From assembly GCA_023245335.1 (NCBI GenBank), contig JAHFKK010000001.1, positions 1,000,019 to 1,064,018 of the forward strand: a DNA stretch of 64,000 nucleotides, read 5' to 3'. Made by a program: the position numbers and the translations under genes. The stretch comes from Candidatus Gottesmanbacteria bacterium (GTDB lineage Bacteria > Patescibacteriota > Microgenomatia > UBA10105 > UBA927). Positions 708 to 47,713 of this stretch are shown here, one piece after another. Position 1 is the stretch's first letter. Each line of letters begins with the position of its first letter. The notes under the pieces were generated by a model that saw only the letters and a list, made by a program, of their open reading frames with translations, did no database searches and was not told the origin of the DNA.

Positions 708-2051
708 TCAATAACGTTCGGGAACCGGAAATTTTGCGGTCAGTTCGGTCACTTCTTTCGCGATCCGCTGAATAGTTTTGTCGGCGGGTAACTCTTTTTT
801 CATTCTGATAATGAATGCTGCCCGCTCTTCTTTGTTCTCCGGCAAACGAATATCTTTTACAGACGAAATAATCTCCGTTATCCACCCGCCTATGAGCTTC
901 ATCTCTTTCTCTTTCATTCCTCTCGTCGTGATCGCGGGAGTTCCCAACCGAATACCGGAAGGATAGACGGATGTCCCGTTGTCAAAGGGAACCGTATTGC
1001 GGTTGACGACGATATTCGCGTACTCCAAGGCCCAGGCGACAACCCACGCTGAGGCGCCGGATGACCGGAGATCGATTAATACCAGGTGTTTATCCGTGCC
1101 CCCTGACACCACATCCAACCCTGCCTTCATAAACAGCCCGGCGAGTATCTGTGCATTTTTTACGACTTGCTTCGCGTACGCGGAAAATGCCGGAGTTTTT
1201 GCTTCTCCGAGAGCGACTGCTATTCCTGCGATCGTATGTTCGTGCGGCCCGCCCTGAATGCTCGGAAATACCGACTGATCTATAGCGGATGACAGCTCTT
1301 TTTTCGAGAATATCATGGCGCCCCTCGGACCGCGAAGCGTTTTGTGCGTCGTCATCATGACGACATCTGCATAGGGAAACGGCGACGTATTCACGCCACC
1401 CGCAATAAGCCCAGCTTCGTGGGATACGTCAGCGAGGTAATACGCGCCGACACTGTGGGCAATACCGGCCATCCGTTTGTGATCGATTTCCCTTGGATAC
1501 GCAGTGCCACCGGATATAAGTAATTTCGGCTTTACTTCTTTGGCCTGTTTCTGAATCTCGTCATAATCAAATACCCGTGTTCCTTTGTCGACGTGATAAA
1601 ACGTGACATCCCAAATTTTGGCGACAAGCGTCACTTTTTTCCCGGGAAGTTGCCACCCATGGGACAAATGCCCGCCGTCAGGCAAATACATAGATAATAT
1701 TCTTTCTCCCGGTTCCAATAGGGCCGCGATGACGGCAAGATTTGCAGGACTCCCGGAAAGCGCCTGGACATTGACGCCCCATTGGTCAGGATCAAGCTGA
1801 AAAAGCTCAAGCGCACGCTTTTTACAAAGGCTTTCCAGCTCATCCACGACACTATTTCCCTGATAATATCGCTTTTTCGCCTGCCCTTCGGCGTATTTGT
1901 TGATAAATACCGACCCTACTGCCTCCCGGACGGCCTGACTGGTATAGTTTTCCGAAGGAATCATCTCCAAAACTTCCTGCTGGCGCTTGGATTCAGCTGT
2001 GATAAGTACTGCTACTTGCCGGTCGGATGTATTTATTGCCATGTATGACAA
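708..2051 (-). CDS. glyA: Serine hydroxymethyltransferase
   Basis: 447 aa. N-terminal MIPSENYTS, a PLP-lysine region (HKTLRGPRG) and overall length are typical of SHMT. Confidence 0.9.
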   Translation of the reverse strand: MSYMAINTSDRQVAVLITAESKRQQEVLEMIPSENYTSQAVREAVGSVFINKYAEGQAKKRYYQGNSVVDELESLCKKRALELFQLDPDQWGVNVQALSGSPANLAVIAALLEPGERILSMYLPDGGHLSHGWQLPGKKVTLVAKIWDVTFYHVDKGTRVFDYDEIQKQAKEVKPKLLISGGTAYPREIDHKRMAGIAHSVGAYYLADVSHEAGLIAGGVNTSPFPYADVVMMTTHKTLRGPRGAMIFSKKELSSAIDQSVFPSIQGGPHEHTIAGIAVALGEAKTPAFSAYAKQVVKNAQILAGLFMKAGLDVVSGGTDKHLVLIDLRSSGASAWVVAWALEYANIVVNRNTVPFDNGTSVYPSGIRLGTPAITTRGMKEKEMKLIGGWITEIISSVKDIRLPENKEERAAFIIRMKKELPADKTIQRIAKEVTELTAKFPVPERY

Positions 2052-2087: not shown

Positions 2088-2897
2088 TTAAGAGGAGACT
2101 TGAGTCTTTTGTACCAACCGGACGACAGCGGGTTCTATGGCACCGCAGATAAACGGCCGTAGGACACGGTCCGGTACCAACGCCCAACTGTCAAACCGGA
2201 ATAATTCCGACTCATTACCTTCTATCGAATCCTGAACCGATACGACGAGCGGCCGGTCGGTATCATAAAAATGCCTGCCGCCGTTTGCCAAGGATATCCC
2301 GCCTGCGTCATTTTCTACCGACTTCCTGCCGCTTCCTTTGGCATAAGCTACGACCTCATCACGGGTATACGGACGCATGTGTGCGTGTACCCGGAGAATG
2401 ACCGTCTTCGGTTCGGAGACACCGTCTTTACCGCATCGGACCGCGGTAAGTGCGTTCACGATCTCCACATCCTTGTCTGACTGGGCCATGGCCTCCGCCG
2501 ACTGACTGGCCCATGTGTCCGGATCCTGGTGGGGCTTCTCGAGTATCGTGAGGCTGCCGTCATCCTCATGAACAAACTGTACCGAATCCGTATAGAGATA
2601 AATCCGGTCTTTGCCGTCCGGAATGACACGCGCGCCTGCCGTATACGCCTCTGCCGTTCCGCAGATCGCACTCACCCAAGCGGCATCTTCGCGGGCTTTC
2701 TCCTCAGCGATAAAGACCGGGCGGATCTCCGTATGCGGTGCCATCCGCTGGATGCGCGTCTCATCAAACCCCGGTTCTTTCCGATCTATATGCCAACCAG
2801 GCAAGGCCGCCTGAAATATGGCGTCTTTGTTGCTGCCGTTGCGGGTGACGATCGTGATATCCGGTCGTTCGATATTCATAGGGTGTAAAAAACGCAA
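2088..2897 (-). CDS. Hypothetical protein
   Basis: 269-aa ORF with no overlapping competitor. No motif recognised. Confidence 0.45.
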   Translation of the reverse strand: MRFLHPMNIERPDITIVTRNGSNKDAIFQAALPGWHIDRKEPGFDETRIQRMAPHTEIRPVFIAEEKAREDAAWVSAICGTAEAYTAGARVIPDGKDRIYLYTDSVQFVHEDDGSLTILEKPHQDPDTWASQSAEAMAQSDKDVEIVNALTAVRCGKDGVSEPKTVILRVHAHMRPYTRDEVVAYAKGSGRKSVENDAGGISLANGGRHFYDTDRPLVVSVQDSIEGNESELFRFDSWALVPDRVLRPFICGAIEPAVVRLVQKTQVSS

Positions 2898-3118: not shown

Positions 3119-3709
3119 TTAGCCACTCTTCGTAATTGAGCTCACCTCACAGCTATTTTTCGTGTCGTCAAAGACGAACTTGTAGCCTCCGGCGAGCGGG
3201 ATCGCGACCGTGCGGCTGGTCGGAAAATCTATGGGCAGTCCCAGATATTTCATAGTCACAAACCGCATCGGATCGCCGTGCGTGACGACCAAGACTTCCT
3301 TTCCCAAGTACTCACGCCGCTTTTCCTCTATAAATCCCGCCATCCGCTCTGCCAATTCCCCCATGGATTCAGCTCCTCTGGAGAGATATTTGGGGGTGTA
3401 GGAAAGCTCTCCGTTGGTCGCGTCAAAAAGGTTCATAGACGCTCCCTCCGCGTGGGTCAGCACCTCGAGCAGACGGTCATCGAATTGTACCGGCAGATGG
3501 AGGGCCGAGCTCAAAATTTCCGCAGTCTCGCGCGTCCGCAAAAGCGGACTGCTGTAAATAGCTCCCACATGCTTATCCCGGAAGTACGGCGCGAGTAATT
3601 CTACCTGTTCCCGCCCGCGGGAAGACAGCGGGTAACCCGGAGACCTCCCCGGATACATATATCCCGGATTGTCGTACTCTCCGTGGCGGACAAGATAGAG
3701 CGTGGTCAT
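3119..3709 (-). CDS. Histidine phosphatase family protein (phosphoglycerate mutase-like)
   Basis: N-terminal LYLVRHGE with RHG catalytic histidine motif, 196 aa. Confidence 0.8.
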   Translation of the reverse strand: MTTLYLVRHGEYDNPGYMYPGRSPGYPLSSRGREQVELLAPYFRDKHVGAIYSSPLLRTRETAEILSSALHLPVQFDDRLLEVLTHAEGASMNLFDATNGELSYTPKYLSRGAESMGELAERMAGFIEEKRREYLGKEVLVVTHGDPMRFVTMKYLGLPIDFPTSRTVAIPLAGGYKFVFDDTKNSCEVSSITKSG

Positions 3710-4819
3710 TTAGATAATGATCTTTTTTTTACGAAGAACAGCAAGAATTTTTTCGTGAATGTCTTCTTTGGAAAGAATTTTTCCTTCCTCCGCACACTCT
3801 ATGAGCGCCCAGTTTTTACGCGTTTTGGCCAAAGATAGATACATTGCTTCAGATGCCTTTCTATGGGTGAGATCGCTTTCCAATATGTCGCTTCTGGCAC
3901 CCAAATATGCGCGGTCGCCTTTCTTTTTCGTGAGCTCCATCCCGATTTGCCACGGCACGTGGAGGTAGATAACGACATCTTCCCGGGGAATTTTGTGTAC
4001 TTTGTACTCCAGCTCGTCTATCCAATCCAAAAATTCAGTGCGTTTATCCTCCGGGAGGCGCGCGCCCTGGTGTGCCATATTACTCGTCGCATAGCGGTTA
4101 CTTATGATGACTCCCCCGTGCGCAAGCCACATATCCATCTCCTCTTTGGCGGACGCACGATCCAATGCATACGCGAGCGAAGCCAGGTACGGCGAGACGT
4201 TGTCCCCGAATTCACCGGCGAGGAACCGTCCGGCTATCTTGCCGTGAAACGAACTATAATATCGCGGGAAATCAAATCCCTTCACCGGAATTTGGTGATC
4301 TTTGAGATAGTGTGTCAGGAGTTCCGCCTGCGTCGTCTTGCCGGATCCGTCGCCGCCGTCTATGACAATAAGCATTCCCCGGCGCTTCCTCTCGACATCT
4401 ACCTGCTCCAAAAAGTGTTTGAGGATAATGGGCAGACCTTCTTCATCATAATGTTCCAAAAATAAATGATCAGAAGGATTACCGGTGATCATGGCGGAAA
4501 GTTCATTGACCGCATCTTTGTAAAACATCGCCAATACGGGTTTATGATGCGTGAGCGCGTACACGATTTCTCCGCCGACGCCGCTACTGGGCTTGGTCAC
4601 TTCGGCAACGACACAATCGGCTTCGTCTATAGCGGTTTTCTCGCGCTGGAAGATCTCTTCGGCAGACCGCGCGGCATCTTTTTCGAGTTCGTGGTGATCC
4701 AGAATCTGTTCACCGGAGGTCAATGTATGCCCCAGTGTCTTGAGGTTGTCGATAATTGCTTTTTCCTGTACGAGATAATCGCCGTTATTTGTCGTCGCCG
4801 CCGTAAAATATATTTTCAT
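3710..4819 (-). CDS. tmk: Fusion protein: N-terminal nucleoside 2-deoxyribosyltransferase/Rcl-like domain plus C-terminal thymidylate (dTMP) kinase
   Basis: The C-terminal half has the Tmk P-loop IVIDGGDGSGKTTQ and lid region. The N-terminal ~140 aa (MKIYFTAA...GGEIVYAL) resembles the NDT/DNPH1 flavodoxin-like fold. Confidence 0.75.
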   Translation of the reverse strand: MKIYFTAATTNNGDYLVQEKAIIDNLKTLGHTLTSGEQILDHHELEKDAARSAEEIFQREKTAIDEADCVVAEVTKPSSGVGGEIVYALTHHKPVLAMFYKDAVNELSAMITGNPSDHLFLEHYDEEGLPIILKHFLEQVDVERKRRGMLIVIDGGDGSGKTTQAELLTHYLKDHQIPVKGFDFPRYYSSFHGKIAGRFLAGEFGDNVSPYLASLAYALDRASAKEEMDMWLAHGGVIISNRYATSNMAHQGARLPEDKRTEFLDWIDELEYKVHKIPREDVVIYLHVPWQIGMELTKKKGDRAYLGARSDILESDLTHRKASEAMYLSLAKTRKNWALIECAEEGKILSKEDIHEKILAVLRKKKIII

Positions 4820-5487
4820 GTTCTCTTCATGTATCCTAGCATATCCGCGACTTCGTAGACGGTAGGCAATGTGACATCCGCGACTTTTCCCGTCGTTTCG
4901 CTCCAGACAAGGCAGGTACGCATACCGAGTATATGTGCCGGCACGAGATCTACCGGTTCCCTATCTCCGATCATCATATGAGCGCCCGCAGGAAGCCCGG
5001 TTTCCTTCATGATATATCGGAATCCCTTCTCGCTTGGTTTGGTCTCTCCGACGACCTCTGATGTCACGATCTTCTCAAAAGTCGAGGGGTCGAGCCCGAT
5101 AATCTTCAGCCCTTTCGCGACCGACTCCTGCGTTCCGTTGACCAGCATGAAATGCCGGTATCGGGAAAGAGCCCGAAACATACCGGCAAGTCTGGCATCG
5201 GGCTTCAAGTACTTCGCATAGTCAACAGCTGCTGCCGTCTCTATCGCTGAGGCTGTATTAGAAATTTTGGCGATGATGGATACGGTCTTGGTACCGCTCG
5301 GAGTGATCACTTTATAAACTTTATAAAATTCTTCACTCGCTTTCTTCTCGGACCAGCCGGTATGCTTCATGATTACCCGTATCTCACCCGCCCGGATTTC
5401 ATCCCATAACGCGAGTTTTTGGCGGTAGAGTGTCCCGTCAAAATCCCAAACGATGATCTGAACGTCCTGAAACAGTGTATGCGGCAT
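4816..5487 (-). CDS. HAD-superfamily hydrolase
   Basis: N-terminal motif I DFDGTL, 223 aa. Overlaps tmk by 4 bp, suggesting an operon. Confidence 0.7.
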   Translation of the reverse strand: MPHTLFQDVQIIVWDFDGTLYRQKLALWDEIRAGEIRVIMKHTGWSEKKASEEFYKVYKVITPSGTKTVSIIAKISNTASAIETAAAVDYAKYLKPDARLAGMFRALSRYRHFMLVNGTQESVAKGLKIIGLDPSTFEKIVTSEVVGETKPSEKGFRYIMKETGLPAGAHMMIGDREPVDLVPAHILGMRTCLVWSETTGKVADVTLPTVYEVADMLGYMKRT

Positions 5488-5496
5488 AAATAGACG

Positions 5497-6132
5497 CTAC
5501 GATAAAGTGCGGAGTTTCATGCGAACCTCATGGACGAGTGTCACGCGTGCTTTGGCACTTTTTATAATATTAAGCTCATCCGTGACCACCTTCAATACGG
5601 GAATATCATTATCTTCGGCAAGCCATTTGTGATTGAGCATATCCAGAAGCTCCAAATATTTCATCGTGATGTGACGTTCATATCCTCGGCCGCGGGCGTC
5701 GATACGATGTGCAAGCTCGCGAATCGACGTCTCGAGGTAAATGATGAGATCCGGTTTGGGGAAATACGGTTCAAATGAACGATAAATTTTCTGGTACAAC
5801 CGCCACTCACTTTCGTCCATATTGCCTAGGACGTGCTGTGCCTTGGCATAGGAAAACGCATCCTCCTGGATCGGTGTATCCAGTACGACCGGCCGCACGA
5901 CAAGCATATTGCGCGTTTCCAAGATCTGCGAAATTTTTTCCATGAGAAAGAACGTCTGCGAATGAAATGCCCATCGTTTCATGTCCGTATAAAATCTCGG
6001 GAGAAACGCATTTTCCCCGAAATTTTCCTCGATGAGCCCGAATCGGAACTCTTTGGCGAGCAATCTCGAGACCGTGGTCTTCCCGCTTCCCATGGTTCCC
6101 ATGACGGTAAGATAGAATAATTTCTTCTTCAC
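5497..6132 (-). CDS. Deoxynucleoside kinase (dNK/dCK/dGK family)
   Basis: P-loop GTMGSGKTT, the ERS-like motif (here ETSIRE) and ~210 aa length are typical of deoxynucleoside kinases. Confidence 0.75.
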   Translation of the reverse strand: MKKKLFYLTVMGTMGSGKTTVSRLLAKEFRFGLIEENFGENAFLPRFYTDMKRWAFHSQTFFLMEKISQILETRNMLVVRPVVLDTPIQEDAFSYAKAQHVLGNMDESEWRLYQKIYRSFEPYFPKPDLIIYLETSIRELAHRIDARGRGYERHITMKYLELLDMLNHKWLAEDNDIPVLKVVTDELNIIKSAKARVTLVHEVRMKLRTLS

Positions 6133-7883: not shown

Positions 7884-7997
7884 CACTGGAATCAAAAATA
7901 GTCAGTTGCGTGACATGACGATTTGACACCACATGACCTAATGTATAGCATACGAGTTGCAAGGAGCACATTTACAGGGAGCGGAAACTGGAAATTT

Positions 7998-8165
7998 TTT
8001 AGCGTGTGGCCCCGGTCACGACACAATCGGACCGTGGGATACGAGGAAGGCGTAAGCGAAACTATCTGCGGGTACGCCTCGGTTGCACTCTCAACCGCAA
8101 TCCGGATGAAAAACCCAACCGTAAGGCTGGATATAGATCAACCGGTTATGAGTCCGCCTCTCTAG
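7998..8165 (+). ncRNA. glmS ribozyme (glucosamine-6-phosphate-activated self-cleaving riboswitch)
   Basis: Found 150 nt upstream of the glmS ATG. It aligns to the conserved core AGCG...ACGAGGA-GGCG-UAAGCGAAA-CUGCGGGUACGCCU-CGGUUG...CAACCG...CCGUAAGG (Rfam RF00234: GACGAGGA..UAUCGAAU..GGCGGAUGCCUCC..CGGCUG..CAGCCGUAAGG). Confidence 0.55.
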
Positions 8166-8314
8166 ATCATTCTTACAAATTTACAAACAAAGGGCAGCAC
8201 ATAGCTTGTTCTGTCTTTAACTACGTTTATTAGGTGTGTCACGTATCATGTATCAATGTGTCACGCTCACATTCCTGACACTTGAGACCTGACGCCCATG
8301 ACACTATATATCTT

Positions 8315-10117
8315 ATGTGTGGAATATTCGGATACATCGGTCACAAAACAAACGCTCCGACGATCGTCCTTGAAGGACTCAAACGTCTCGAGTATCGCGG
8401 CTACGACTCCTGGGGAGTTGCCGTGGTGCCGGAGGGAGACGCCGAAAACATTCTCGTCAAGAAAAAGGCAGGAAAAATCGGCGCCGCGACCGTAACGAGC
8501 ATGCCGAAAGGGACACTTGCGTTCGGACATACCCGGTGGGCTACCCACGGCGGAGTGACGGACGTGAACGCCCATCCGCATCTCGACTGCACCAAAACCA
8601 TTGCAGTCATCCATAACGGGATCGTCGAAAATTACGAAGCACTCAAGGAAATGCTCACGAAAGAAGGGCACCACTTCGTATCCCAAACAGATACGGAAAT
8701 CATCGCGCATTTAGTGGAAGAAAATCTTAAGGCCATGAAGCCCGCCATTCGGGACGCCCAACCTGCTTTTTCCAAAGCGGTACAAAAAGCGTTTAATGCT
8801 CTCGACGGGCTTAACGCGATTATCCTTATAAACACCACGTCACACGAGATGGTGGCCGCAAGAAACGGCTCACCGCTTGTCGTTGGATTCGGTGACGGAG
8901 AAAATTTTCTCGCAAGCGATCCTGCGGCACTTCTCCCACATACCAAGCAAGTGCATTATCTGGAAGATGATGAGATGGTCATCGTGAGACCGGATGCCAT
9001 CCATATCTTTAACGCGAGGACCGGCGAACGGGTGCGGCCGCGGAAACAACTTCTCACGTGGACCGAAAAAGACGCGGAGAAAGGACAGTATCCCTACTTC
9101 ATGCTCAAAGAAATTTACGAGCAGCCCGGTCTTATGAGCGAAATTGCATCAGAATCGACGGAACAAGCTAAAGAATTGGCAAAGCAATTCGCTACTGCCT
9201 ACCGCGTATACGTCGTCGGAGCCGGCACATCCGGTCATGCCGCGCGGGCCGCATCGTATTTGTTTTCGGATATCTCCGCACATCTTATTAACTGGGGTAT
9301 CGCAAGCGAATTTGATCATCGGCTAAACGTGATACCGGAAAAAAGCCTAGTGGTAGCACTATCGCAATCGGGAGAAACGATGGATCTTATGGAAGTAGTG
9401 AAAAAAGCAAAGGCGAAAGGGATTGGTGTCGTTTCTATCGTCAACGTGGTGGGTTCTTCCCTATGGCGTATGGCCGATTTCCGTATGCCTATCGGAGCCG
9501 GACCGGAAAAAGGAGTGGCATCGACCAAGGCATTTACGTCAAAAATAGCGCACCTTATCCTTATCGCGTATGCAATGAAAGGAAACATCAGTGATGGACA
9601 AAAACTGCTCATACGGGCCGCCAAAAGCGCCAAAGAAGCGGTAAGCGAATCAAACGTCAAGCGTATCAAAGCGCTTGCGGCGAAGATGAAATCGGTCGAA
9701 CATATGTTCGTCGTGGGTAAGGGTATCTCCTATCCGGCAGCGCAGGAATGCGCGCTCAAGATAAAGGAAATATCCTATATCCATGCGGAAGGCGTCGCGG
9801 CAGGCGAACTCAAGCACGGCCCCCTAGCGCTCGTCACCAAAGGGACGCCATGCATCGTCATCGCGCCCAATGATGAGACCTATCGTGACGTCCTGGGAAG
9901 CGCGATGGAAATGAAAGCGAGAGGCGGTCATATCATCGGGTTTTCATATAAAAATGATGAGGTCTTTGATGATTACATACCGGTCGCCGATGCGGGTGAG
10001 GCGACGATTATCCCGAACGTCATCGTGGCCCAGCTCCTCGCCTACTATCTGACGCTTGAACGGGGCTTTGACCCCGACATGCCGCGAAATCTCGCCAAAA
10101 GCGTAACCGTGAAATAA
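8315..10117 (+). CDS. glmS: Glutamine--fructose-6-phosphate aminotransferase
   Basis: MCGIFGYIG N-terminal nucleophile Cys, two SIS domains, C-terminal ...KSVTVK. The upstream Met at 8282 would put the catalytic Cys at residue 12, so 8315 is preferred. Confidence 0.93.
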   Translation: MCGIFGYIGHKTNAPTIVLEGLKRLEYRGYDSWGVAVVPEGDAENILVKKKAGKIGAATVTSMPKGTLAFGHTRWATHGGVTDVNAHPHLDCTKTIAVIHNGIVENYEALKEMLTKEGHHFVSQTDTEIIAHLVEENLKAMKPAIRDAQPAFSKAVQKAFNALDGLNAIILINTTSHEMVAARNGSPLVVGFGDGENFLASDPAALLPHTKQVHYLEDDEMVIVRPDAIHIFNARTGERVRPRKQLLTWTEKDAEKGQYPYFMLKEIYEQPGLMSEIASESTEQAKELAKQFATAYRVYVVGAGTSGHAARAASYLFSDISAHLINWGIASEFDHRLNVIPEKSLVVALSQSGETMDLMEVVKKAKAKGIGVVSIVNVVGSSLWRMADFRMPIGAGPEKGVASTKAFTSKIAHLILIAYAMKGNISDGQKLLIRAAKSAKEAVSESNVKRIKALAAKMKSVEHMFVVGKGISYPAAQECALKIKEISYIHAEGVAAGELKHGPLALVTKGTPCIVIAPNDETYRDVLGSAMEMKARGGHIIGFSYKNDEVFDDYIPVADAGEATIIPNVIVAQLLAYYLTLERGFDPDMPRNLAKSVTVK

Positions 10118-13259: not shown

Positions 13260-14789
13260 TTATAGTTCTTTGTTCGCCGCTGGGTCCTGATTATACTTCT
13301 CAGGTTTGCCGAGTTTGATGTAAAACTCCGCCCGCTGCAATTCGGTGCCGATATAGATAAGGTGACTTGGCAAAACGAGGTACTCACCGATATTCACCAT
13401 TTCAATGTAGAGTTCCATAGCGGTCTTTTCCCGCCATTCCTTGAGAAGCAGTCCGCCGTTTGGTGCATAGAGTTTGACGACAATTTCCCATTCGGTATCC
13501 GGGGGCTTCGTAGCGTATTTGGTAGGTCTTCCGACACTATTTTTGTCCGTTTGCTCGACCGAAACGACCACGTTCCCCCGCGGATCATCTTCAAACATCT
13601 GCCTGCTCGTGTAGCCTAACTCTTTGTCATAATTTTCTTTCAGGATCTTTTCGACCAACTCGTAATCATCGCTATAGATGTGCGCGCTATGGGTGATCAT
13701 GACGAACGCCCCCATGGCGACCCCCGACTCGTCGCAAATAAGCTTCTGTAATTTCCGAAGGCTAAATACGTTCCTGGGCCAGCCGTGCACCATATCCTGA
13801 CTCCGAAAATGCGTCGTCATAAAAAGTCTGCCGTCCTCTATGCTGCAGAGAATCTGTGTGAGGCACGGCGTGTCCCCTTTGTTGACGACCGACCAGTCTT
13901 CTTTAATTTTGGCGGTAAATGCAACCATCTTTTTCGAAAACGGTCGTGTTTTGATAAGGTCTATGATGTTTTGGATCTGATCGACGCCGTCATGATCGCG
14001 CAGTCTCTGCCCATACGTATATGCGATGCCGGGAATCTGTTTGGCGGAAAGTACCTGCGGATAATACGAAAGCAAATCTTTTTCCGAAAACGGGAAAAAG
14101 TGCGGCAGATATGGCTTGTCCGGATCCTCGTCATAGACGACCGCCATGACGTTCAGGAACTCTTTGAGTTCATTTTCCTGCGTGTAGCGGGTCGTTTTGT
14201 TGCGGCCGTACCGCATGATATTCATAAGGATTTTGAGCCATGCTTGCGCCGCGGTCTTCCCGTGTATGCGAACACCGATCTGTTCGCTGGGATACGTAAA
14301 CGGTTTGGGGCGACTGGTCGGAAACTTTTTGGGCTCGGTAAATGGCGCGGGCGGGACGGCCCCCAAATCACTGACTGTTTTCCTCAAAAGATCCGGAGAT
14401 TTGCCGCGGAGATTGATGACCTCTACGGATGTGCGGAAAAGGTCTATGGCATCCTTACCTATTTCCTTCTCTATCTGCCCGCCTTTCTCGTCCCCGATAA
14501 TGAAAAAATTCTCGTCGACGCCATTTGCCATAAGCGCCATAAGCGCCTGGCCGCTTCGGGAAAGGTCAGCGCCCCACAAAACGATCTTCCGTACATGCGG
14601 GTTGGCATAGACGTTTCTGATCATTGCCGAAATTCCCGCGGACGAATACAGGTTACCGATGGCGCAATAGTTCTCGTCTTTCAGAAGGTTCGCGACCACC
14701 TGCCGTTCCGTCCACATGATTGCAACCCCGACGGGATTCTTGGGGTCTTTGACATGCAACACTTGTCTATAGAGAATCGGCCAATCCAT
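13260..14789 (-). CDS. thyA: Thymidylate synthase (ThyA, archaeal-type PCL active site) with ~200-aa N-terminal extension domain
   Basis: The C-terminal ~300 aa carries ThyA folate/dUMP motifs including the catalytic Cys in TPCL (archaeal-type rather than PCH). It is adjacent to dcd. The N-terminal domain is unassigned. Confidence 0.65.
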   Translation of the reverse strand: MDWPILYRQVLHVKDPKNPVGVAIMWTERQVVANLLKDENYCAIGNLYSSAGISAMIRNVYANPHVRKIVLWGADLSRSGQALMALMANGVDENFFIIGDEKGGQIEKEIGKDAIDLFRTSVEVINLRGKSPDLLRKTVSDLGAVPPAPFTEPKKFPTSRPKPFTYPSEQIGVRIHGKTAAQAWLKILMNIMRYGRNKTTRYTQENELKEFLNVMAVVYDEDPDKPYLPHFFPFSEKDLLSYYPQVLSAKQIPGIAYTYGQRLRDHDGVDQIQNIIDLIKTRPFSKKMVAFTAKIKEDWSVVNKGDTPCLTQILCSIEDGRLFMTTHFRSQDMVHGWPRNVFSLRKLQKLICDESGVAMGAFVMITHSAHIYSDDYELVEKILKENYDKELGYTSRQMFEDDPRGNVVVSVEQTDKNSVGRPTKYATKPPDTEWEIVVKLYAPNGGLLLKEWREKTAMELYIEMVNIGEYLVLPSHLIYIGTELQRAEFYIKLGKPEKYNQDPAANKEL

Positions 14790-14791
14790 GA

Positions 14792-15397
14792 TTATTTTTC
14801 CTGGGCAATTCTGCTTGCCAGAGGTGTTTTTTGCCCGGCGTATTTCGCCGTTTTTTTCTTACTGTACGGCACCTGGGCAGGAGAACTTAATTCTTCAAAC
14901 GTCATACTGCAAATCCGCATCCCCGGATAGAGGGCGACCGCCATACGGCCTAAATTTCCAAGCTCCATGACGACGACGCCATTCCACCCGGGCTCGAATA
15001 TTGACGCGGTCGAATGGACAACGATTCCGAGCCGTCCGAGACTGGATCTTCCTTCTAAGCGACCAATAAGATCATCTGCGATAGATATGGATTCAACGGT
15101 TGTTGCTAACACGAAATCACCCGGTTGCAGGATAAACGCTTCCCCTTTTGTGAGATTGACTTCCCGCATCATGTCTTTGGAAAGCTTAGGATTCGTCGGG
15201 TCTATATAGGCCATCGTGCTATGGTTGAAAACCCGGAATTGTCTTCCGAGCCGGAGATCGACCGAACAAGAACCAAGCTGTGTCTTCGCATCTATCTTCG
15301 GGGTTATGACAATTCTCTTGGAGAGAACGGCTTTTTTGATATCCCTATCGGACAAAATCATGGGCCTAAGTATAGCCAATACGCGTGCATGAGACAA
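14792..15397 (-). CDS. dcd: dCTP deaminase
   Basis: MILSDRDIKKA N-terminus, ~200 aa trimeric dUTPase-like fold, and the VDLRLG motif. Confidence 0.88.
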   Translation of the reverse strand: MSHARVLAILRPMILSDRDIKKAVLSKRIVITPKIDAKTQLGSCSVDLRLGRQFRVFNHSTMAYIDPTNPKLSKDMMREVNLTKGEAFILQPGDFVLATTVESISIADDLIGRLEGRSSLGRLGIVVHSTASIFEPGWNGVVVMELGNLGRMAVALYPGMRICSMTFEELSSPAQVPYSKKKTAKYAGQKTPLASRIAQEK

Positions 15398-36883: not shown

Positions 36884-37561
36884 GACCGACTTATTATGGC
36901 AGATTTATCACGGATTACAATGGGATTCCCACAAAAAATCCCTGGCGGAGCCAGGGAAATTTGTTTAATCCACCCGATCTTCCTTTGCGCCTTACCTACT
37001 ATTCGTAGCGCGGCGCAAAGAGCGATCTTTAGCGGACTTCGGTGCCTTTAGCAACCGGATGGTGATAGGGTTCACCCAGAGCAATGAAAAGAAACCACAC
37101 CGCATAGAGCGGAAGCAATTATCTTTTCGTGCATAGGGTTAGGGATTTGAGAGAAAACTAGAAAAGATCATCCCGCTAAATGCGGAATATCTCGATCATG
37201 AACTAGTTTTCAAATAGAAAGGAGGTGATCCATCCCCAGCTTCGGCTAGGGATACCTTGTTACGACTTAGTCCCCATCGCTGAACTTACCTTCGACTCGT
37301 AAACGAATCTTCGGGTACTTTCAACTTTGGTGGCTTGACGGGCGGTGTGTACAAGACCCGAGAACGTATTCACCGCGGCCTGCTGATCCGCGATTACTAC
37401 CAATTCCAACTTCATGAGGTCGGGTTGCAGACCTCAATCTGAATTGAGGCGAAATTTTAGAGATTTGCTTGGCATTACTACCTTGCGTCCCGTTGTTATT
37501 CGCCATTGTAGGGTGTGTGTGGCCCAGGGCATAAGCGCCGTGCTGACTTGACGTCGTCCCC

Positions 37562-37690
37562 TCCTTCCTCCCCCTCTCTATAAACAGAAGTAAATAGTAA
37601 TGAGTAAATAGTAAGTAGATTAAAAACAAAAACGTTTTCTTTCTATTCACTACTCACTATTTACTATTCACTCTTCCGTCCATAGAGAGG
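37562..37690 (-). repeat. ~128-nt palindromic expansion replacing 16S helix 40, built from a TAAATAGTAA-type repeat unit
   Basis: It lies between GGAGACCGCC and GAGGAAGG, where E. coli has the 15-nt h40 hairpin. It forms the stem ccctctctat...atagagaggg with internal tandem repeats taaatagtaaNgag. Confidence 0.7.
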
Positions 37691-37760
37691 GGGCGGTCTC
37701 CGATGACACTTGTAACATCGGATAGGGGTTGCGCTCGTTGTCCCACTTAAGGGAACACCC

Positions 37761-37791
<31 letters not shown>

Positions 37792-37905
37792 GCTGTGCTA
37801 CCATCCTTGCGGATCCCCTCCCATTTCTGGATGGGTAAACGGTAGCATGTCAAACCCTGGTGAGGTCCTTCGCTTTGTCTCGAATTGAACCACACGCTCC
37901 ACTGG

Positions 37906-37937
<32 letters not shown>

Positions 37938-38326
37938 TAAGCTTGCGCTCGTATTCCCCAGGCGGTCTGCTTAACGCGTTAGCTTACGACAGACAGATTG
38001 CTCTGCCCATCTAGCAGACATGCGTTTAGGGCTAGGACTACGCAGGTCTCTAATCTGCTTCGCTCCCCTAGCTTTCGTGTCTCAGCGTCAGATATTGGCC
38101 AGAAAGGTGCCTTCGCCTTCGGTGTTCCTCATGATATCAACGCATTTCACTGCTTCACCATGAGTTCCCCTTTCCTCTCCAATCCTCGTAGTTTACCCAT
38201 CTCGTATCCAACGTCGAGGTTAAGCCTCGAGCTTTCAGATACGATGCGGTATACCGCCTACACGACACTTTACGCCCAGTAAATCCGGATAACGCTTGCA
38301 CCCTACGTATTACCGCGACTGCTGGC

Positions 38327-38560
38327 CTGTCACACATTGTGACAAACTTTGGACTATATCTTCATCCCGATTCGTATCGGGAGTCTCGCGTATAGTCTCT
38401 GAGGACTCTCTCCGCCAAAGGCGGAGGTTGCCTGCTGATTGTCTTGATACATGTCTGCTGTGTAGCAGAATACTTCGCGGTATATCAAGGTGTTCCAGCA
38501 TATAGCGAGATTTTCTTTCATTACATTACTGTATGACTACGCACCAAACCCCTTACCGGG
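38327..38560 (-). other. ~234-nt insertion in 16S rRNA at E. coli position ~514/515 (within the 515F primer site)
   Basis: Conserved flanks ...ACTACGTGAC | insert | GCCAGCAGTCGCGGTAATAC. The insert is hairpin-rich and has no ORF. Confidence 0.7.
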
Positions 38561-38987
38561 GTCACGTAGTTTGTAGGTGCTTATTCGCCAAAGCCTGTCG
38601 ACCTTGGCAAAAGAGGTTTACGATCCGAAAACCTTCATCCCTCACGCGGCGTCGCTCGGTCAGACTTTCGTCCATTGCCGAATATTCCCAGTTGCTGCCA
38701 TCCGTAGATGTATGGCCCGTGTCTCAGTGCCATTGTGGGGGGTCGTGCTCTCACACCCCCTATCCGTCGTCGCCTTGGTAGGCCTTTACCCCACCAACTA
38801 GCTGATAGATGCAGGGCCACTCCTCCTCCGCGCGGTTAAGCGCTTTGACCTTACGGCCTCATGCGGTATTACCCCGTCTTTCGACGAGCTATCCCACAGA
38901 AAAGGGCATGTTCCCTGCTTATACTCACCCGTCCGCCACTGTAAATTAAATCTTGCGACTCAAAAAACCGTTCGACTTGCATGCTTA

Positions 38988-39030
<43 letters not shown>

Positions 39031-39239
39031 AAAAAAATTGACGTAAGGAGCATTTGTTTGACCAAATTCTGCTTACATCAAAAAAAATCCTATCACCATT
39101 CGATTGTTAAAGTACTCTCCTGAGAGAAAACGTAGATTTTCTCCCAACGCGACCTAGTCAAGCTGGCAGGTGCTTTCGCGATTCCTGCCGTCGCTGCTTT
39201 TCCCGGTTAGTGAAAAGCGAGGTGATGCAAAGAGCGAAA

Positions 39240-40747: not shown

Positions 40748-42319
40748 ATGAAAAAAATACTGTTCTTTAGCCTCACCATTTTCCTAAGCGCCATCGCCGT
40801 ATGGTATGGCATCACCCATCACCGCGGCGTGACCTGCCCCCGATGCAACATTATCGTCATCACGGTAGACAGCATCCGCGCCGACCACCTACCCTGCTAC
40901 GGTTACGCACTAAATACCGCTCCTCATCTTTGTGCTTTTGCCGACGAAAATCTGCGCTTTACCCGCATGTTCGCAAATTCCACCTGGACACGTCCCAGTG
41001 AATTATCCATGCTGACATCTCTTTATCCGGTAAGTCATGGCATGACCGACCCTCTCCCTACTCATATGAATCCCAAAATTACGACACTGCCGCAAGTGTT
41101 GTATCGTAACGGTTATGAAACAACATTCGTGAGTAATGATCATCTGAACATGGCACTCGAGTTAGGCTTCGGACGGGGATTTCAGCACATCCAATTCACT
41201 CCGGCGATCATCAATGACGAAACGATGCACACGTGGTCGGACACGATAGACTCGATACAAACCGCGAACAAAAAACATAAACCGGCATTCGTTTTTATCC
41301 ACACGGACCATGTCCATGATTACATCGAAGAAATTCTACGGCCCCCGCAAAAATTCCCACTAGATCCGGCCTACCGGTCAAATATAAACTATCCAAAACA
41401 ATTTACCGAAGAAACCTGGAAACGTTCCATCGATTATCTTACCCACAGCATGGAGGTTGGTTGGGGAACCGACCCGATAAACGAGCAGGACGCATGGCGC
41501 ACACAACTGCGGCAGGCCAAAACATTGGACGAGGCACGTCAGGTATTTCTCCAGTTTCCAGAAACTCTCCAGTATGATCTCTATCTCAACATCGCACAGG
41601 ATGATCTCTATAAAAATAATTTTGCCGATTTCATGGAATTATGCAGACACCTCTATGATGAGAATATCCGCACCTTTGATCTATCATTTGAAAAACTCCT
41701 CAAGCGCATCGATGAGGACGGCATCAGCCGGAACACGATTGTCGTCGTAATCGGCGACCACGGACAGCTCTTGGGTGAATACGGGCTCATCGGACACATC
41801 CTCGGCATATCCAACGAGGAAATCCACGTTCCCTTTATTGCTCGGATTCCCGGACTATCATCACGTGTCATTGACGGATTGACACAGGGCATCGATCTCT
41901 ACCCCACGCTTCTGGATGTGGTGGGGATATCGCCGCCGAAGACCGTTGCCGGCATCAGTCTCCGTAAACTCTTGACGAATCAAAAAAACGCGCCGCAGAA
42001 TAAATACGTCATAAGCCAGACGCTGCTTCCGGATCACTTGGAAAGCATACAAACAGACCGTTGGCGACTTGTCGAAGGATTTTATCCCATTGGAATCTCA
42101 CGAAATCTCTACGACCTTGCACGCGATCCCAAACAACTCCACAGCGTATCCCCGACGACACAGCCCGTCGTTGATGCGCTCACCAAACTTTTAGAAACCA
42201 CCATACGCCGGCAACCCGTCTATCCGCCGGTGCAGTCGGCCTTCCCTGATTGGTTTGATGCGACTGTCCGAAAACAACGCATAGACAAAGGCTATTACTT
42301 TGACCCGCTTCATGGTTAA
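40748..42319 (+). CDS. Sulfatase-like (alkaline-phosphatase superfamily, PF00884-like) membrane-anchored protein, paralog 1; Thr-type LtaS/EptA-like candidate phosphotransferase
   Basis: N-terminal TM, then CPRCNIIVITVDSIRADHLPCYGY (metal-ligand Asp region). NSTWTRPSELSMLTSLYP sits where the sulfatase C/S-x-P-x-R motif would be. Confidence 0.75.
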   Translation: MKKILFFSLTIFLSAIAVWYGITHHRGVTCPRCNIIVITVDSIRADHLPCYGYALNTAPHLCAFADENLRFTRMFANSTWTRPSELSMLTSLYPVSHGMTDPLPTHMNPKITTLPQVLYRNGYETTFVSNDHLNMALELGFGRGFQHIQFTPAIINDETMHTWSDTIDSIQTANKKHKPAFVFIHTDHVHDYIEEILRPPQKFPLDPAYRSNINYPKQFTEETWKRSIDYLTHSMEVGWGTDPINEQDAWRTQLRQAKTLDEARQVFLQFPETLQYDLYLNIAQDDLYKNNFADFMELCRHLYDENIRTFDLSFEKLLKRIDEDGISRNTIVVVIGDHGQLLGEYGLIGHILGISNEEIHVPFIARIPGLSSRVIDGLTQGIDLYPTLLDVVGISPPKTVAGISLRKLLTNQKNAPQNKYVISQTLLPDHLESIQTDRWRLVEGFYPIGISRNLYDLARDPKQLHSVSPTTQPVVDALTKLLETTIRRQPVYPPVQSAFPDWFDATVRKQRIDKGYYFDPLHG

Positions 42320-43883: not shown

Positions 43884-43896
43884 AATAATAAAGACC

Positions 43897-47027: not shown

Positions 47028-47056
47028 ACGAGCGGTATACCTCTAGAGTATACCAG

Positions 47057-47698
47057 ATGCCTATGAGACCGAATCGACATTTCTCGTACCATTTTTCCAC
47101 AAACTCGCTTCTGTATTCCTTCATGATTCTTATCGGTCTTTTTCTGTTCGCTTTTGCCATGTCGTATCACACGTGCGACAGACTCACCTGTATCTCTGTT
47201 TCCGGAAAACACACGTGGAAAGAGATAGACGCGTACGAACATACGGCAAAGACATATCGCGCGCTCTTTCAAGCAAATACCTATCGGGTCCGGGTAGAAA
47301 AAAATTCAGGACTCACGACCGACGATGCGGCGCTCCTTATGAAGGTAAACATGATGAAAATTTCCGGCCTGTTCGATGACGCCCGCTCACCATACCCGGG
47401 CGCATTGTCCGACCGGATTGTCTGCGATCATGCCTACAAACCGGACATCCGGCATATGACAAACGACTCGCAACTACCGATTACCTACTACACGGGGTGG
47501 CTCAATGACCGACTCCAATTCGGCTCATGTTTGGACTCGGAACTACCATACAAAAGCTATAACGCATATGCGTATTGCCCCCGGGAAAAAGCGTTATATC
47601 ATCTCGAGTGGATTATAAACCGCTCGAAGGACAATGAGGATGAATATATGAATTCGATGCGTACCATGCGGTGTCAAACACCATTCCCATCTCTTTAA
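47057..47698 (+). CDS. Membrane-anchored Cys-containing hypothetical protein
   Basis: 213 aa with an N-terminal TM (LLYSFMILIGLFLFAFAM) and a probable extracytoplasmic domain with 6 Cys. Confidence 0.4.
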   Translation: MPMRPNRHFSYHFSTNSLLYSFMILIGLFLFAFAMSYHTCDRLTCISVSGKHTWKEIDAYEHTAKTYRALFQANTYRVRVEKNSGLTTDDAALLMKVNMMKISGLFDDARSPYPGALSDRIVCDHAYKPDIRHMTNDSQLPITYYTGWLNDRLQFGSCLDSELPYKSYNAYAYCPREKALYHLEWIINRSKDNEDEYMNSMRTMRCQTPFPSL

Positions 47699-47713
47699 GT
47701 CCGGGGTAGTATG

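What the first reader, a model, noticed from the sequence alone, without database searches (positions are those of the whole stretch)
3710..4819. Domain fusion: nucleoside 2-deoxyribosyltransferase/Rcl-like domain fused to thymidylate kinase
Residues 1-~140 have the hallmarks of the NDT/DNPH1 fold (MKIYFTAA...GxE...YALT). The remainder is a canonical Tmk with an intact P-loop. The fusion could channel deoxyribose between base exchange and phosphorylation, or hydrolyse non-canonical dNMPs before Tmk acts. It is an unusual architecture.
Basis: partly seen in the sequence, partly recalled or inferred. Interest (0 to 1): 0.6.

Follow-up and report, generated by a model that had tools for sequence, protein, structure and literature searches.

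The report
DNPH1-like domain fused to thymidylate kinase
The thymidylate kinase of this tiny candidate-phyla bacterium carries an extra front domain related to the human nucleotide-pool cleaner DNPH1, a fusion conserved in its relatives but never studied, which probably removes faulty thymidylate look-alikes before the kinase can activate them.

Summary
Window 3710-4819 (minus strand) is one 369-aa ORF. Residues 1-128 are a PF05014 NDT/DNPH1-fold domain, a helix (129-147) links the halves, and residues 148-369 are an intact Mycobacterium-type thymidylate kinase.

The N-domain is DNPH1-like, not a classical nucleoside deoxyribosyltransferase. Its best solved relatives by sequence (E = 5.6e-11) and all top-50 fold matches are rat or human DNPH1. 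It keeps the nucleophile Glu (E84), the Tyr (Y4), both phosphate-binding serines (S78, S108) and the sugar and base contacts. Three DNPH1 features are remodelled: GSIRGG is AATTNNG, the LTEHV His is Gln (Q38), and the acid Asp is Glu (E60).

The fusion is real and old. It occurs in 69 species-level genomes, which where named are Microgenomates-type CPR, at a housekeeping locus. Here it lies in a conserved block of dNK, HAD nucleotidase, the fusion, His-phosphatase, a Maf-like gene and SHMT.

The function is inferred. The most likely role (about 0.45) is a dNMP N-glycosidase that sanitises the kinase's substrate pool. The rivals are a non-catalytic nucleotide-binding or oligomerisation domain, since several fused lineages lost the nucleophile, and a natural phosphodeoxyribosyltransferase. 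I found no literature on it. I rate it a new variant of a known kind.

The parts
3710..4819 (-). Complete ORF of 369 aa plus the TAA stop: a DNPH1-like domain fused to thymidylate kinase
4436..4819 (-). N-terminal DNPH1/NDT-fold domain, residues 1-128
   Evidence: PF05014 at 34.2 bits. PDB phmmer best hit is rat DNPH1 4fyh, E = 5.6e-11. AF2 model pLDDT is 89.7, and all Foldseek top-50 hits are DNPH1.
4778..4810 (-). Residues 4-14, Y-F-T-A-A-T-T-N-N-G-D. Y4 aligns with DNPH1 Tyr24. The loop takes the place of the GSIRGG phosphate loop.
   Evidence: Alignment. Motif table. Roles of the residues from PMC3834327 and PMC10603095.
4706..4717 (-). Residues 35-38, S-G-E-Q: the family-specific version of DNPH1's T-E-H-V helical element. 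Q38 most likely corresponds to His56 and E37 to Glu55.
   Evidence: The register is ambiguous by 2 residues.
4568..4591 (-). Residues 77-84, P-S-S-G-V-G-G-E. S78 aligns with the phosphate-binding Ser and E84 (codon 4568-4570) with the nucleophile Glu.
   Evidence: Alignment with DNPH1 and with LlNDT. E84 is invariant in A2. DNA checked.
4472..4501 (-). Residues 107-116, L-S-A-M-I-T-G-N-P-S. S108 and M110 align with DNPH1's trans-acting Ser and Met. G113-N-P-S116 is invariant in the family.
4379..4435 (-). Linker helix, residues 129-147, running into the first kinase strand
   Evidence: Secondary structure of the AF2 models. It is the least conserved segment, with 49% mean pairwise identity.
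3713..4378 (-). Thymidylate kinase domain, residues 148-369, of the M. tuberculosis type
   Evidence: PF02223 at 65.3 bits. NF005923 at 131 bits. 1g3u/4unp at E about 8e-19. Foldseek TM-score relative to the target up to 0.87.
4334..4357 (-). Kinase P-loop G155-G-D-G-S-G-K-T162
   Evidence: DNA read. G155-K161 are invariant in A2.
4816..5487 (-). Upstream HAD hydrolase resembling pyrimidine 5'-nucleotidases. Its stop overlaps the fusion's start codon (ATGA).
   Evidence: Conserved next to the fusion in 19 loci.
5497..6132 (-). Deoxynucleoside kinase (PF01712), first gene of the block
   Evidence: Conserved in 21 loci.
3119..3709 (-). Histidine phosphatase (PF00300). Its ATG directly follows the fusion's TAA.
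   Evidence: Conserved in 17 loci.
2088..2897 (-). Divergent Maf-like protein, conserved in the block
   Evidence: Pfam Maf hits 11 of 15 family members, best E = 1.2e-5. Present in 16 loci.
708..2051 (-). Serine hydroxymethyltransferase, last gene of the block
   Evidence: Pfam SHMT. Within the fetched locus around the fusion in 27 loci, including distant ones.

Best explanation
The gene encodes this CPR bacterium's thymidylate kinase with a DNPH1-type domain built onto its N-terminus. Shown: the fold, the homology, the conserved active-site residues, the age and spread of the fusion, and its nucleotide-metabolism neighbourhood. Inferred: the N-domain binds a 2'-deoxynucleoside 5'-monophosphate. 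Its phosphate would be held by S78, by S108 from the partner subunit, and by the T9-N12 loop. The base would stack on I56 and be read by Q38. E84 would attack C1' to form a covalent 5-phospho-deoxyribosyl-enzyme, which is then hydrolysed, possibly with the help of E37. The products are the free base and deoxyribose 5-phosphate. The most likely substrates are thymidylate look-alikes such as 5-hydroxymethyl-dUMP, dUMP or other 5-substituted dUMPs. These arise when scavenged DNA is broken down, and they would otherwise compete for the attached kinase or be activated by it. On this reading the fusion joins a pool-sanitising glycosidase to the gatekeeper of dTTP synthesis.
For: Homology and fold.

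Ligand contacts: by the alignment, the contacts described for rat and human DNPH1 (PMC3834327, PMC10603095) fall on Y4, I56, S78, G80, E84, S108 and M110. In the 75 relatives at 61% identity or more, E84 is invariant, and I56, S78, G80, S108 and M110 are each conserved in at least 90% of them. Y4 is less conserved; it is Tyr or Phe in close relatives.

Phosphate-type pocket: S78 and S79 align with LlNDT D92 and V93. These are two of the five positions changed (to G and T) in the variant 4hx9, which I recall as the designed phosphodeoxyribosyltransferase.

Sugar preference: Tyr at position 4, rather than MilB's Phe, suggests deoxyribose by the logic in PMC10603095.

Selection: E84, S78 and Ser/Thr108 are kept together in 57 of 69 fused genomes down to about 50% identity.

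Context: the block holds dNK, a nucleotidase-like HAD (ATGA overlap), a His-phosphatase (TAA-ATG junction), a Maf-like protein and SHMT. Maf and YjjG-like HAD enzymes are house-cleaning families. This lineage of the domain is also fused to an ITPase-type house-cleaning NTPase in P0136 and P0158, and there the Glu is kept.

Kinase half: it is intact. The window encodes DprA, which fits a lifestyle of DNA uptake.
Against: No activity data exist. Three DNPH1 features are changed. The GSIRGG/Arg30 loop is AATTNNG. His56 is absent (Gln or Gly, depending on the register). The acid Asp80 is Glu here and Gln in 17 related species. The candidate water-activating Glu (E37) is Glu in only 28 of 57 genomes of the main clade. 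Other kinase-fused lineages have lost the nucleophile but kept the domain: P0132, P0142, P0152, P0195, and loci L023, L055, L058, L060, L063-L067, L072 and L073. This shows that catalysis is not what maintains the fusion everywhere. The substrate identity is pure inference. I could not inspect model coordinates, so the active-site geometry and the domain interface were not examined.
Confidence: 0.45

Rival explanations
1. The N-domain is a non-catalytic module. It would be a (d)NMP-binding sensor or an obligate dimerisation domain that tunes or stabilises the kinase, and the catalytic residues in this clade would be a legacy of its origin.
For: The nucleophile was lost repeatedly while the domain was retained. 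Examples are E to L in L023 and in the L063-L067/L072 clade, E to Q in L055 and L073, and E to I in L058 and L060. It is also lost in the Tmk+TK triple fusion P0132, in the Tmk fusions P0142 and P0152, and in the ADK fusion P0195. Some motifs (GNPS 113-116, E122-x-Y124) stay conserved in several lineages where E84 is gone (L023, L055, L058, L060, L073). Position 60 is Gln in 17 species. DNPH1 is a dimer with trans-acting residues (PMC10603095). The short rigid linker and the pTM of 0.78 for the whole chain suggest a fixed arrangement of the two domains.
Against: In the window's clade, E84, E60, G82 and G83 are invariant and S78, S108 and M110 are near-invariant across 75 proteins. Across 69 genomes, 57 keep the nucleophile together with both phosphate Ser/Thr positions. 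That pattern is what purifying selection on a working active site would produce. A pure dimerisation role would not need them.
Confidence: 0.25
2. The N-domain is a natural phosphodeoxyribosyltransferase. It would exchange the base on a dNMP (dNMP + thymine gives dTMP + base) through the E84 covalent intermediate. The fused kinase would pull the reversible reaction forward by turning dTMP into dTDP, letting a scavenger rebalance its dNMP supply.
For: The active site is a hybrid of the two known types. It has DNPH1-type phosphate serines with S78 and S79 at the D92/V93 positions, two of the five positions altered in the LlNDT variant 4hx9. It has an invariant Gln (Q38) just after strand 2, where L. 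leichmannii NDT has its base-binding Gln46 (topological inference plus my own knowledge, not confirmed by alignment). DNPH1's His56 is absent, and the candidate hydrolytic Glu (E37) is dispensable in half of the family. DNPH1 E55 mutants trap the covalent intermediate (PMC10603095). The partner is a kinase that consumes the would-be product.
Against: All close solved relatives are hydrolases. No natural enzyme of this kind turned up in the literature searched. The window's own protein does carry E37. The window also encodes a dCTP deaminase and a thymidylate-synthase-like protein next to each other, plus SHMT, so a conventional dTMP route probably exists. The TK and ADK fusions have lost the nucleophile.
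Confidence: 0.12
3. The N-domain is a classical nucleoside 2-deoxyribosyltransferase. It would swap bases on deoxynucleosides, which the neighbouring dNK then phosphorylates and Tmk carries on.
For: The Pfam family name and some database annotations ('nucleoside 2-deoxyribosyltransferase'). A dNK gene lies two genes upstream. A lineage exists in which thymidine kinase is fused on as well (P0132).
Against: The Asp that binds the sugar 5'-OH in NDT (D92) is Ser here. Both DNPH1 phosphate serines are conserved. The hhalign match to LlNDT is weak (probability 10.9%), whereas DNPH1 matches at E = 5.6e-11 and fills the top 50 fold hits. The domain has no free C-terminus, whereas class II NDTs use the C-terminal carboxylate of the partner subunit for base binding (my own knowledge). 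P0132 lacks the nucleophile.
Confidence: 0.05

Closest known systems
Mammalian DNPH1 / Rcl, the 2'-deoxynucleoside 5'-phosphate N-hydrolase and hmdUMP sanitiser (PDB 4fyh, 4p5e, 8qhq, 8qhr)
   Same: Same fold. It is the best sequence match (E = 5.6e-11, about 27% identity, aligned over essentially the whole domain) and fills the top 50 structural hits. The Tyr and the Glu nucleophile, both phosphate serines, the stacking Ile, the trans Met and the G-V-G-x-E motif are all kept (PMC3834327, PMC10603095).
   Different: It is fused to a kinase instead of standing alone. The GSIRGG/Arg30 loop is A-A-T-T-N-N-G. LTEHV is LT-SG-EQ-I, so the His is replaced by Gln. The acid Asp80 is Glu, or Gln in some relatives. 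It has an extra invariant GNPS loop and an E-H-Y motif. Stand-alone prokaryotic relatives keep the canonical DNPH1 motifs, so these changes are specific to the fused clade.
Class II nucleoside 2-deoxyribosyltransferase, L. leichmannii NDT (1f8x)
   Same: Same superfamily (PF05014). The core aligns as E60-D72 and E84-E98. The chemistry goes through a covalent glycosyl-enzyme intermediate.
   Different: NDT's Asp92 is Ser78 here. The match is only weak (hhalign probability 10.9%). There is no free C-terminal carboxylate. The pocket is of the phosphate-binding type.
LlNDT variant in PDB 4hx9, recalled as the designed phosphodeoxyribosyltransferase of Kaminski & Labesse 2013
   Same: Small or hydroxyl residues replace Asp92 and Val93 (G and T in 4hx9; S78 and S79 here), which would make room for a 5'-phosphate.
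   Different: 4hx9 is an engineered NDT with F13R and N123S. The window protein has T10 and N105 at the aligned positions and is a natural DNPH1 relative. Transferase activity has not been tested for it. The paper itself could not be read, and the tool names 4hx9 only 'Nucleoside deoxyribosyltransferase'.
M. tuberculosis thymidylate kinase (1g3u, 4unp; NCBIfam NF005923)
   Same: The kinase half aligns end to end (E about 8e-19). By the alignment, with Mtb numbers from my own knowledge, the matches are: P-loop Asp (D157 to D9), F184-P-R-Y187 (F36 to Y39), Y217 (F70), R221 (R74), R242 (R95) and N247 (N100). It also has a basic LID.
   Different: Y103 is His250 and D94 is Asn241, and both are invariant in the family. 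The score is below NCBIfam's equivalog cut-off (131 against 193 bits). It carries the N-terminal domain.
MilB / BcmB-type CMP and hmCMP N-glycosidases of nucleoside-antibiotic pathways
   Same: They are prokaryotic PF05014-fold nucleotide hydrolases with a Ser at the S98 position and a Glu nucleophile (as described in PMC10603095).
   Different: MilB has Phe in place of the Tyr (a ribose preference) and uses an Arg for the phosphate. The window protein has Tyr and no such Arg. I did not compare the sequences directly.

Membership tests
NDT/DNPH1 superfamily (Pfam PF05014) | Sequence match above the curated cut-off | tested here: met
   34.2 bits against a cut-off of 28.8, residues 14-99. The same domain is precomputed for most of the 120 homologues.
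NDT/DNPH1 superfamily (Pfam PF05014) | Rossmann-like alpha/beta fold of DNPH1/NDT | tested here: met
   AF2 model with pLDDT 89.7 and pTM 0.87. All Foldseek top-50 hits are DNPH1, TM-score 0.7-0.84.
DNPH1/Rcl dNMP N-hydrolase | Nucleophile Glu (human E104) in the G-V-G-x-E motif | tested here: met
   E84 aligns with rat E93. It is invariant in the 75 relatives and present in 58 of 69 fused genomes.
DNPH1/Rcl dNMP N-hydrolase | Triad Tyr (human Y24) | tested here: met
   Y4 aligns with it. Across the family the position is Tyr in 52 loci, Phe in 9 and Leu in 6.
DNPH1/Rcl dNMP N-hydrolase | General acid Asp (human D80) | tested here: inconclusive
   Glu60 is at the aligned position. It is Gln in 17 related species.
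DNPH1/Rcl dNMP N-hydrolase | Two phosphate-binding serines (human S98 and S128') | tested here: met
   S78 and S108 align with them. Each is Ser in 60 loci.
DNPH1/Rcl dNMP N-hydrolase | G-S-I-R-G-G loop (backbone phosphate contacts, Arg30) | tested here: not met
   The sequence is A7-A-T-T-N-N-G13. Stand-alone relatives keep GSI(R/S)GGR.
DNPH1/Rcl dNMP N-hydrolase | LTEHV element with Glu55 (water activation) and His56 (leaving-group stabilisation) | tested here: not met
   The motif is L-T-S-G-E-Q-I, and no His is present in any register. E37 may stand in for Glu55, but it is Glu in only 28 of 57 genomes of the main clade.
DNPH1/Rcl dNMP N-hydrolase | dNMP N-glycosidase activity; homodimer with trans-acting residues | not testable with these tools
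   This needs enzyme assays and a multimer model or a solved structure.
Nucleoside 2-deoxyribosyltransferase (class I/II NDT) | Asp binding the sugar 5'-OH (LlNDT D92) | tested here: not met
   Ser78 is at the aligned position.
Nucleoside 2-deoxyribosyltransferase (class I/II NDT) | Base-binding Gln46 and the partner subunit's C-terminal carboxylate | tested here: inconclusive
   hhalign did not align the N-terminal half. Q38 sits at a similar topological place. The domain's C-terminus continues into the kinase, so it has no free carboxylate. The NDT roles are from my own knowledge.
Thymidylate kinase (PF02223; Mtb type NF005923) | Pfam match above cut-off and the Tmk fold | tested here: met
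   65.3 bits against a cut-off of 27. Foldseek TM-score relative to the target is 0.8-0.87 for Pf, human and Mtb TMPK.
Thymidylate kinase (PF02223; Mtb type NF005923) | P-loop GxxGxGK[ST] with the Asp | tested here: met
   G155-G-D157-G-S-G-K161-T. G155 to K161 are invariant.
Thymidylate kinase (PF02223; Mtb type NF005923) | dTMP-site residues (Mtb F36, P37, Y39, F70, R74, R95, N100, Y103) | tested here: met
   The alignment gives F184, P185, Y187, Y217, R221, R242, N247 and H250. Only Y103 to His and D94 to Asn differ. The Mtb numbering is from my own knowledge.
Thymidylate kinase (PF02223; Mtb type NF005923) | NCBIfam equivalog score cut-off | tested here: not met
   NF005923 scores 131.3 against 193, and TIGR00041 scores 62.1 against 83.25. 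It is a divergent subfamily.

The most novel reading that the evidence does not exclude
The N-domain is the first natural phosphodeoxyribosyltransferase. It would move 5-phospho-deoxyribose from any scavenged dNMP onto thymine, and the fused kinase would immediately trap the dTMP as dTDP. As far as I know, this activity has so far existed only as an engineered enzyme. It would give genome-reduced CPR bacteria a way to rebalance dNTP pools at the monophosphate level.
Probability: 0.12. Interest if true: 0.85.

Novelty: new variant of a known kind. Interest (0 to 1): 0.55.

Why it matters
DNPH1 is under intense study as a drug target because its loss sensitises BRCA-deficient tumours to PARP inhibitors (PMC10603095). 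The biology of its prokaryotic relatives is essentially unexplored.

A fusion of a DNPH1-type domain to thymidylate kinase that is conserved across a lineage is a natural Rosetta stone. It ties this glycosidase family to thymidylate metabolism independently of the mammalian work.

It also offers a bacterial system with a naturally remodelled active site (His to Gln, Asp to Glu, a new phosphate loop). That system could be used to work out what decides substrate choice and the balance between hydrolysis and transfer.

For CPR bacteria, which are thought to live on scavenged nucleic acids, it points to quality control at the dNMP level as part of a compact salvage and sanitation operon.

If the domain turned out to be a transferase, it would also be a ready-made biocatalyst for nucleotide-analogue synthesis.

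Tried and rejected
Rejected readings:
- Unrelated fold (CheY, TIR or SLOG). Only sub-threshold Pfam hits appeared (ThsB_TIR at E = 0.053), while the DNPH1 matches by sequence and fold are decisive.
- Assembly or frameshift artefact. The same architecture occurs in 69 independent genomes.

Searches that gave nothing:
- Literature searches for the fusion found no relevant paper.
- The phage collection matched only the kinase half.
- A profile of the unknown neighbour against PDB sequences gave no significant hit. Scanning each family member against Pfam then showed a consistent weak Maf signal.

- The designed-PDT paper was not held. I read the mutated positions off the PDB sequence of 4hx9 instead.
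- Model coordinates are not exposed to scripts. I therefore could not superpose the model on DNPH1 or NDT or examine the interface between the domains.

Weak or revised arguments:
- hhalign of the family profile against LlNDT aligned only the catalytic core, at low probability. The Q38-Gln46 equivalence stays unproven.
- I first read the family as lacking DNPH1's water-activating Glu55. Checking the alignment register showed that E37 probably corresponds to it in this protein, so I dropped that argument for a transferase.

Not tested:
- I could not test whether the genome has a second tmk, or dut or deoC, because only the window and 20-kb loci were accessible. No second tmk lies in the 64-kb window.
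Full report
**1. The observation**

Window 3710-4819 holds a single 369-aa ORF on the minus strand. So is the kinase P-loop G155-GDGSGK-T162, which I checked against the DNA. Pfam places PF05014 (Nuc_deoxyrib_tr, 34.2 bits against a cut-off of 28.8) on residues 14-99. It places PF02223 (Thymidylate_kin, 65.3 bits against a cut-off of 27) on residues 153-347.

**2. What the N-domain is**

By sequence, its best solved relatives are rat and human DNPH1/Rcl (E = 5.6e-11, aligned over residues 4-143). An AlphaFold2 model of residues 1-147 is confident (pLDDT 89.7, pTM 0.87). All of its top-50 Foldseek hits in the PDB are DNPH1 chains, with TM-scores of 0.7-0.84. Classical nucleoside deoxyribosyltransferase is a much weaker match. 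A family profile aligned only the catalytic core of L. leichmannii NDT, at 10.9% probability. I had verified that NDT sequence against 1f8x.

**3. Residue-level anatomy**

Published structures give the DNPH1 ligand contacts (PMC3834327, PMC10603095). The triad is Y24/D80/E104. The phosphate is held by S98, by S128' from the partner subunit, and by backbone amides of the GSIRGG loop. The base is sandwiched by I29 and I76, and the sugar is contacted by G, E104 and M' (the partner subunit's Met). A helical LTEHV element carries H56, which stabilises the leaving group, and E55, which activates the hydrolytic water.

By the alignment these fall on Y4, E60, E84, S78, S108, T9, I56, G80 and M110.
- In 75 relatives at 61% identity or more, E84, E60, G82 and G83 are invariant, and S78, G80, S108, I56 and M110 are near-invariant.
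- S78 and S79 align with NDT D92 and V93. The LlNDT variant in PDB 4hx9, which I recall as the designed phosphodeoxyribosyltransferase, differs from wild type exactly there (D92G, V93T) and at F13R, E91Q and N123S.

The pocket is therefore of the type that accepts a 5'-phosphate. Tyr at position 4 suggests deoxyribose, because MilB, which prefers ribose, has Phe there (PMC10603095).

Three things differ from DNPH1.
- The GSIRGG loop is A-A-T-T-N-N-G.
- D80 is Glu.
- LTEHV is L-T-S-G-E-Q-I.

The register of this last motif is ambiguous by two residues. hmmalign puts the 'EH' of 42 stand-alone relatives on positions 37-38, and that of human DNPH1 on 35-36. The likelier mapping is E55 to E37 and H56 to Q38, with 'SG' as an insertion. 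Q38 is Gln in 55 of 57 genomes of the main clade. E37 is Glu in 61 of 75 close relatives but in only 28 of 57 across the wider clade.

Stand-alone prokaryotic relatives of about 140 aa keep the canonical DNPH1 motifs (GSIxGGR, T-EH-V, RD, PSLGVGYE). The changes are therefore specific to the kinase-fused clade.

**4. The kinase half**

It aligns end to end with M. tuberculosis TMPK (E about 8e-19). In the full-length model (pLDDT 85.7, pTM 0.78) it superposes on TMPK structures with TM-scores up to 0.87 relative to the target. The P-loop, F-P-R-Y, A-L-D-R, N-R-Y...S-N and a basic LID are present and conserved. The family-specific differences are His250 for Mtb Y103 and Asn241 for D94. It scores below NCBIfam's equivalog cut-offs, so it is a divergent but apparently functional Tmk.

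**5. Distribution and evolution**

- A database search returned 920 related proteins. The 120 best are all about 340-400 aa, and most carry both domains.
- A scan of species-representative genomes gave 78 loci. Of these, 69 are fused and the rest are unfused Tmk relatives in other CPR lineages. The informative record titles name Gottesman-, Roizman- and Woesebacteria and the Microgenomates or Patescibacteria groups. Titles reading 'uncultured Gammaproteobacteria' are evidently mislabels.
- Of the 69 fused genomes, 57 keep E84, S78 and Ser/Thr108 together. Position 60 is Glu in 39 and Gln in 17. Eleven have lost the nucleophile, in at least three separate lineages (L023; L055, L058, L060 and L073; L063-L067 and L072).
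- The exhaustive search with the N-domain alone (884 hits) also turned up other fusions. P0132 is Tmk plus thymidine kinase, with the nucleophile lost. P0142 and P0152 are further Tmk fusions, also without it. P0195 is an adenylate-kinase fusion without it. P0136 and P0158 are ITPase-type NTPase fusions that keep it.
- Within close relatives the N-domain is nearly as conserved as the kinase: 67% against 71% mean pairwise identity.

**6. Genomic context**

In the window the gene sits in a co-directional block: dNK (5497-6132), HAD hydrolase (4816-5487), the fusion, a His-phosphatase (3119-3709), a divergent Maf-like protein (2088-2897) and SHMT (708-2051).
- The HAD resembles pyrimidine 5'-nucleotidases, and its stop overlaps the fusion's start as ATGA.
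- The His-phosphatase ATG directly follows the fusion's TAA.
- The Maf signal appears in 11 of 15 family members, best E = 1.2e-5.

The block is conserved in 16-21 loci of the Gottesmanbacteria-type clade, and SHMT lies directly beside the fusion in some distant loci as well. Downstream lie rpsB, tsf, frr and an M50 protease. They are present in 25-34 loci and were confirmed by Pfam for the window's own record. This is a housekeeping location.

About 8.5 kb away the window also encodes a dCTP deaminase next to a thymidylate-synthase-like fusion protein, and further on a cytidylate kinase, a NUDIX protein and DprA. No second tmk lies in the window.

**7. Interpretation**

What is shown:
- the fold and the homology;
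- a phosphate-type pocket with a conserved nucleophile;
- an intact kinase;
- an old fusion that is fixed in the lineage;
- a neighbourhood devoted to nucleotide salvage and sanitation.

What is inferred: the N-domain binds a 2'-deoxynucleoside 5'-monophosphate and cleaves its glycosidic bond through a covalent E84 intermediate. My best estimate (0.45) is a hydrolase that removes thymidylate look-alikes before the attached kinase can use them or be inhibited by them. Candidates are hmdUMP, dUMP and other 5-substituted dUMPs from scavenged DNA.

Three things point this way. The closest relatives are hydrolases. The partner enzyme is the gatekeeper for T-type nucleotides. The neighbours (a YjjG-like HAD and a Maf-like protein) and the ITPase fusions in this lineage of the domain all belong to house-cleaning families.

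Rivals:
- A non-catalytic binding or oligomerisation domain (0.25). This rests on the repeated loss of the nucleophile in other fused lineages.
- A natural phosphodeoxyribosyltransferase whose product the kinase traps (0.12). This rests on the hybrid DNPH1/NDT-like site, the missing His, and the fact that E37 is dispensable in half the family.
- A classical nucleoside NDT (0.05). This is contradicted by Ser at the D92 position and by the phosphate serines.

**8. Comparison with what is known, and novelty**

It works most like DNPH1, and it is a member of the PF05014 superfamily. It fails two defining DNPH1 features, the GSIRGG loop and the LTEHV His, so I do not file it as a DNPH1 orthologue. 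It is a distinct kinase-fused subfamily. The kinase half is a divergent Mtb-type Tmk.

Public databases annotate these proteins variously as 'dTMP kinase', 'nucleoside 2-deoxyribosyltransferase' or 'hypothetical'. I found no paper describing the fusion, and no phage record has it. I rate it a new variant of a known kind.

**9. Limits**

- No activity data exist.
- Model coordinates could not be inspected.
- The whole genome could not be searched.
- The residue roles of NDT (Gln46, the C-terminal carboxylate), the Mtb TMPK numbering and the identity of 4hx9 as the designed phosphodeoxyribosyltransferase rest on my own knowledge. The LlNDT sequence itself was verified.

Noticed in passing
window 13260-14789 (-), next to 14792-15397 (-): A 509-aa protein combines an MtrA-like N-terminus (PF04208), a partial thymidylate-synthase domain (PF00303, profile positions 92-226 of 266) and a C-terminal pterin-binding DUF4346. 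It lies directly downstream of a dCTP deaminase. This is an unusual ThyA-like fusion and might use a different one-carbon carrier.
   Followed up: no
window 2088-2897 (-): A conserved 269-aa protein has no NCBIfam hit and no PDB hit by sequence. Eleven of 15 family members give a weak Pfam Maf match (best E = 1.2e-5). It is probably a divergent Maf-type nucleotide pyrophosphatase, and it travels with the fusion in 16 genomes.
   Followed up: partly
outside the window: P0132, P0195, P0136/P0158, P0137, P0134: The same DNPH1-like domain occurs in other fusions: Tmk plus thymidine kinase (576 aa), adenylate kinase (602 aa), an ITPase-type NTPase (DUF84), and tandem duplications. One tandem duplication is in a starfish. 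The kinase fusions have lost the nucleophile Glu, while the ITPase fusions keep it.
   Followed up: partly
window 37218-39036 (-), with 38327-38573: A 16S rRNA gene is interrupted by a group I intron. No 23S rRNA hit was reported anywhere in the window, so the 16S gene is unlinked here. Such insertions are typical of CPR bacteria.
   Followed up: no
window 7990-8155 (+): A glmS ribozyme lies upstream of the glmS gene at 8282-10117. glmS is also a conserved neighbour of the block, present in 22 loci.
   Followed up: no
window 40748-49873: A cluster of five paralogous sulfatase-family proteins (about 520 aa each), four on the plus strand and one on the minus strand. BacA and PAP2 phosphatases follow. 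The cluster may be involved in cell-envelope or lipid-carrier chemistry.
   Followed up: no
L074 5478-6855, L075 9309-10687, L076 9983-11349: In CPR lineages without the fusion (for example Levybacteria), two adjacent Tmk-like ORFs of about 228 aa each sit in tandem at the corresponding place.
   Followed up: no
window 55482-56579 (-): A DprA gene (DNA-processing protein of natural transformation) lies next to topA. It fits the idea that this organism takes up DNA, which is relevant to dNMP quality control.
   Followed up: no
L026-L061 and L068, immediately upstream of the fusion: In the Roizmanbacteria-type clade, a protein of about 760 aa directly precedes the fusion on the same strand in 26 loci. 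By inspection of its sequence only, it looks like a ClpB-like AAA+ ATPase with N-terminal membrane segments. dCTP-deaminase-like and OMP-decarboxylase-like genes are also common nearby.
   Followed up: no
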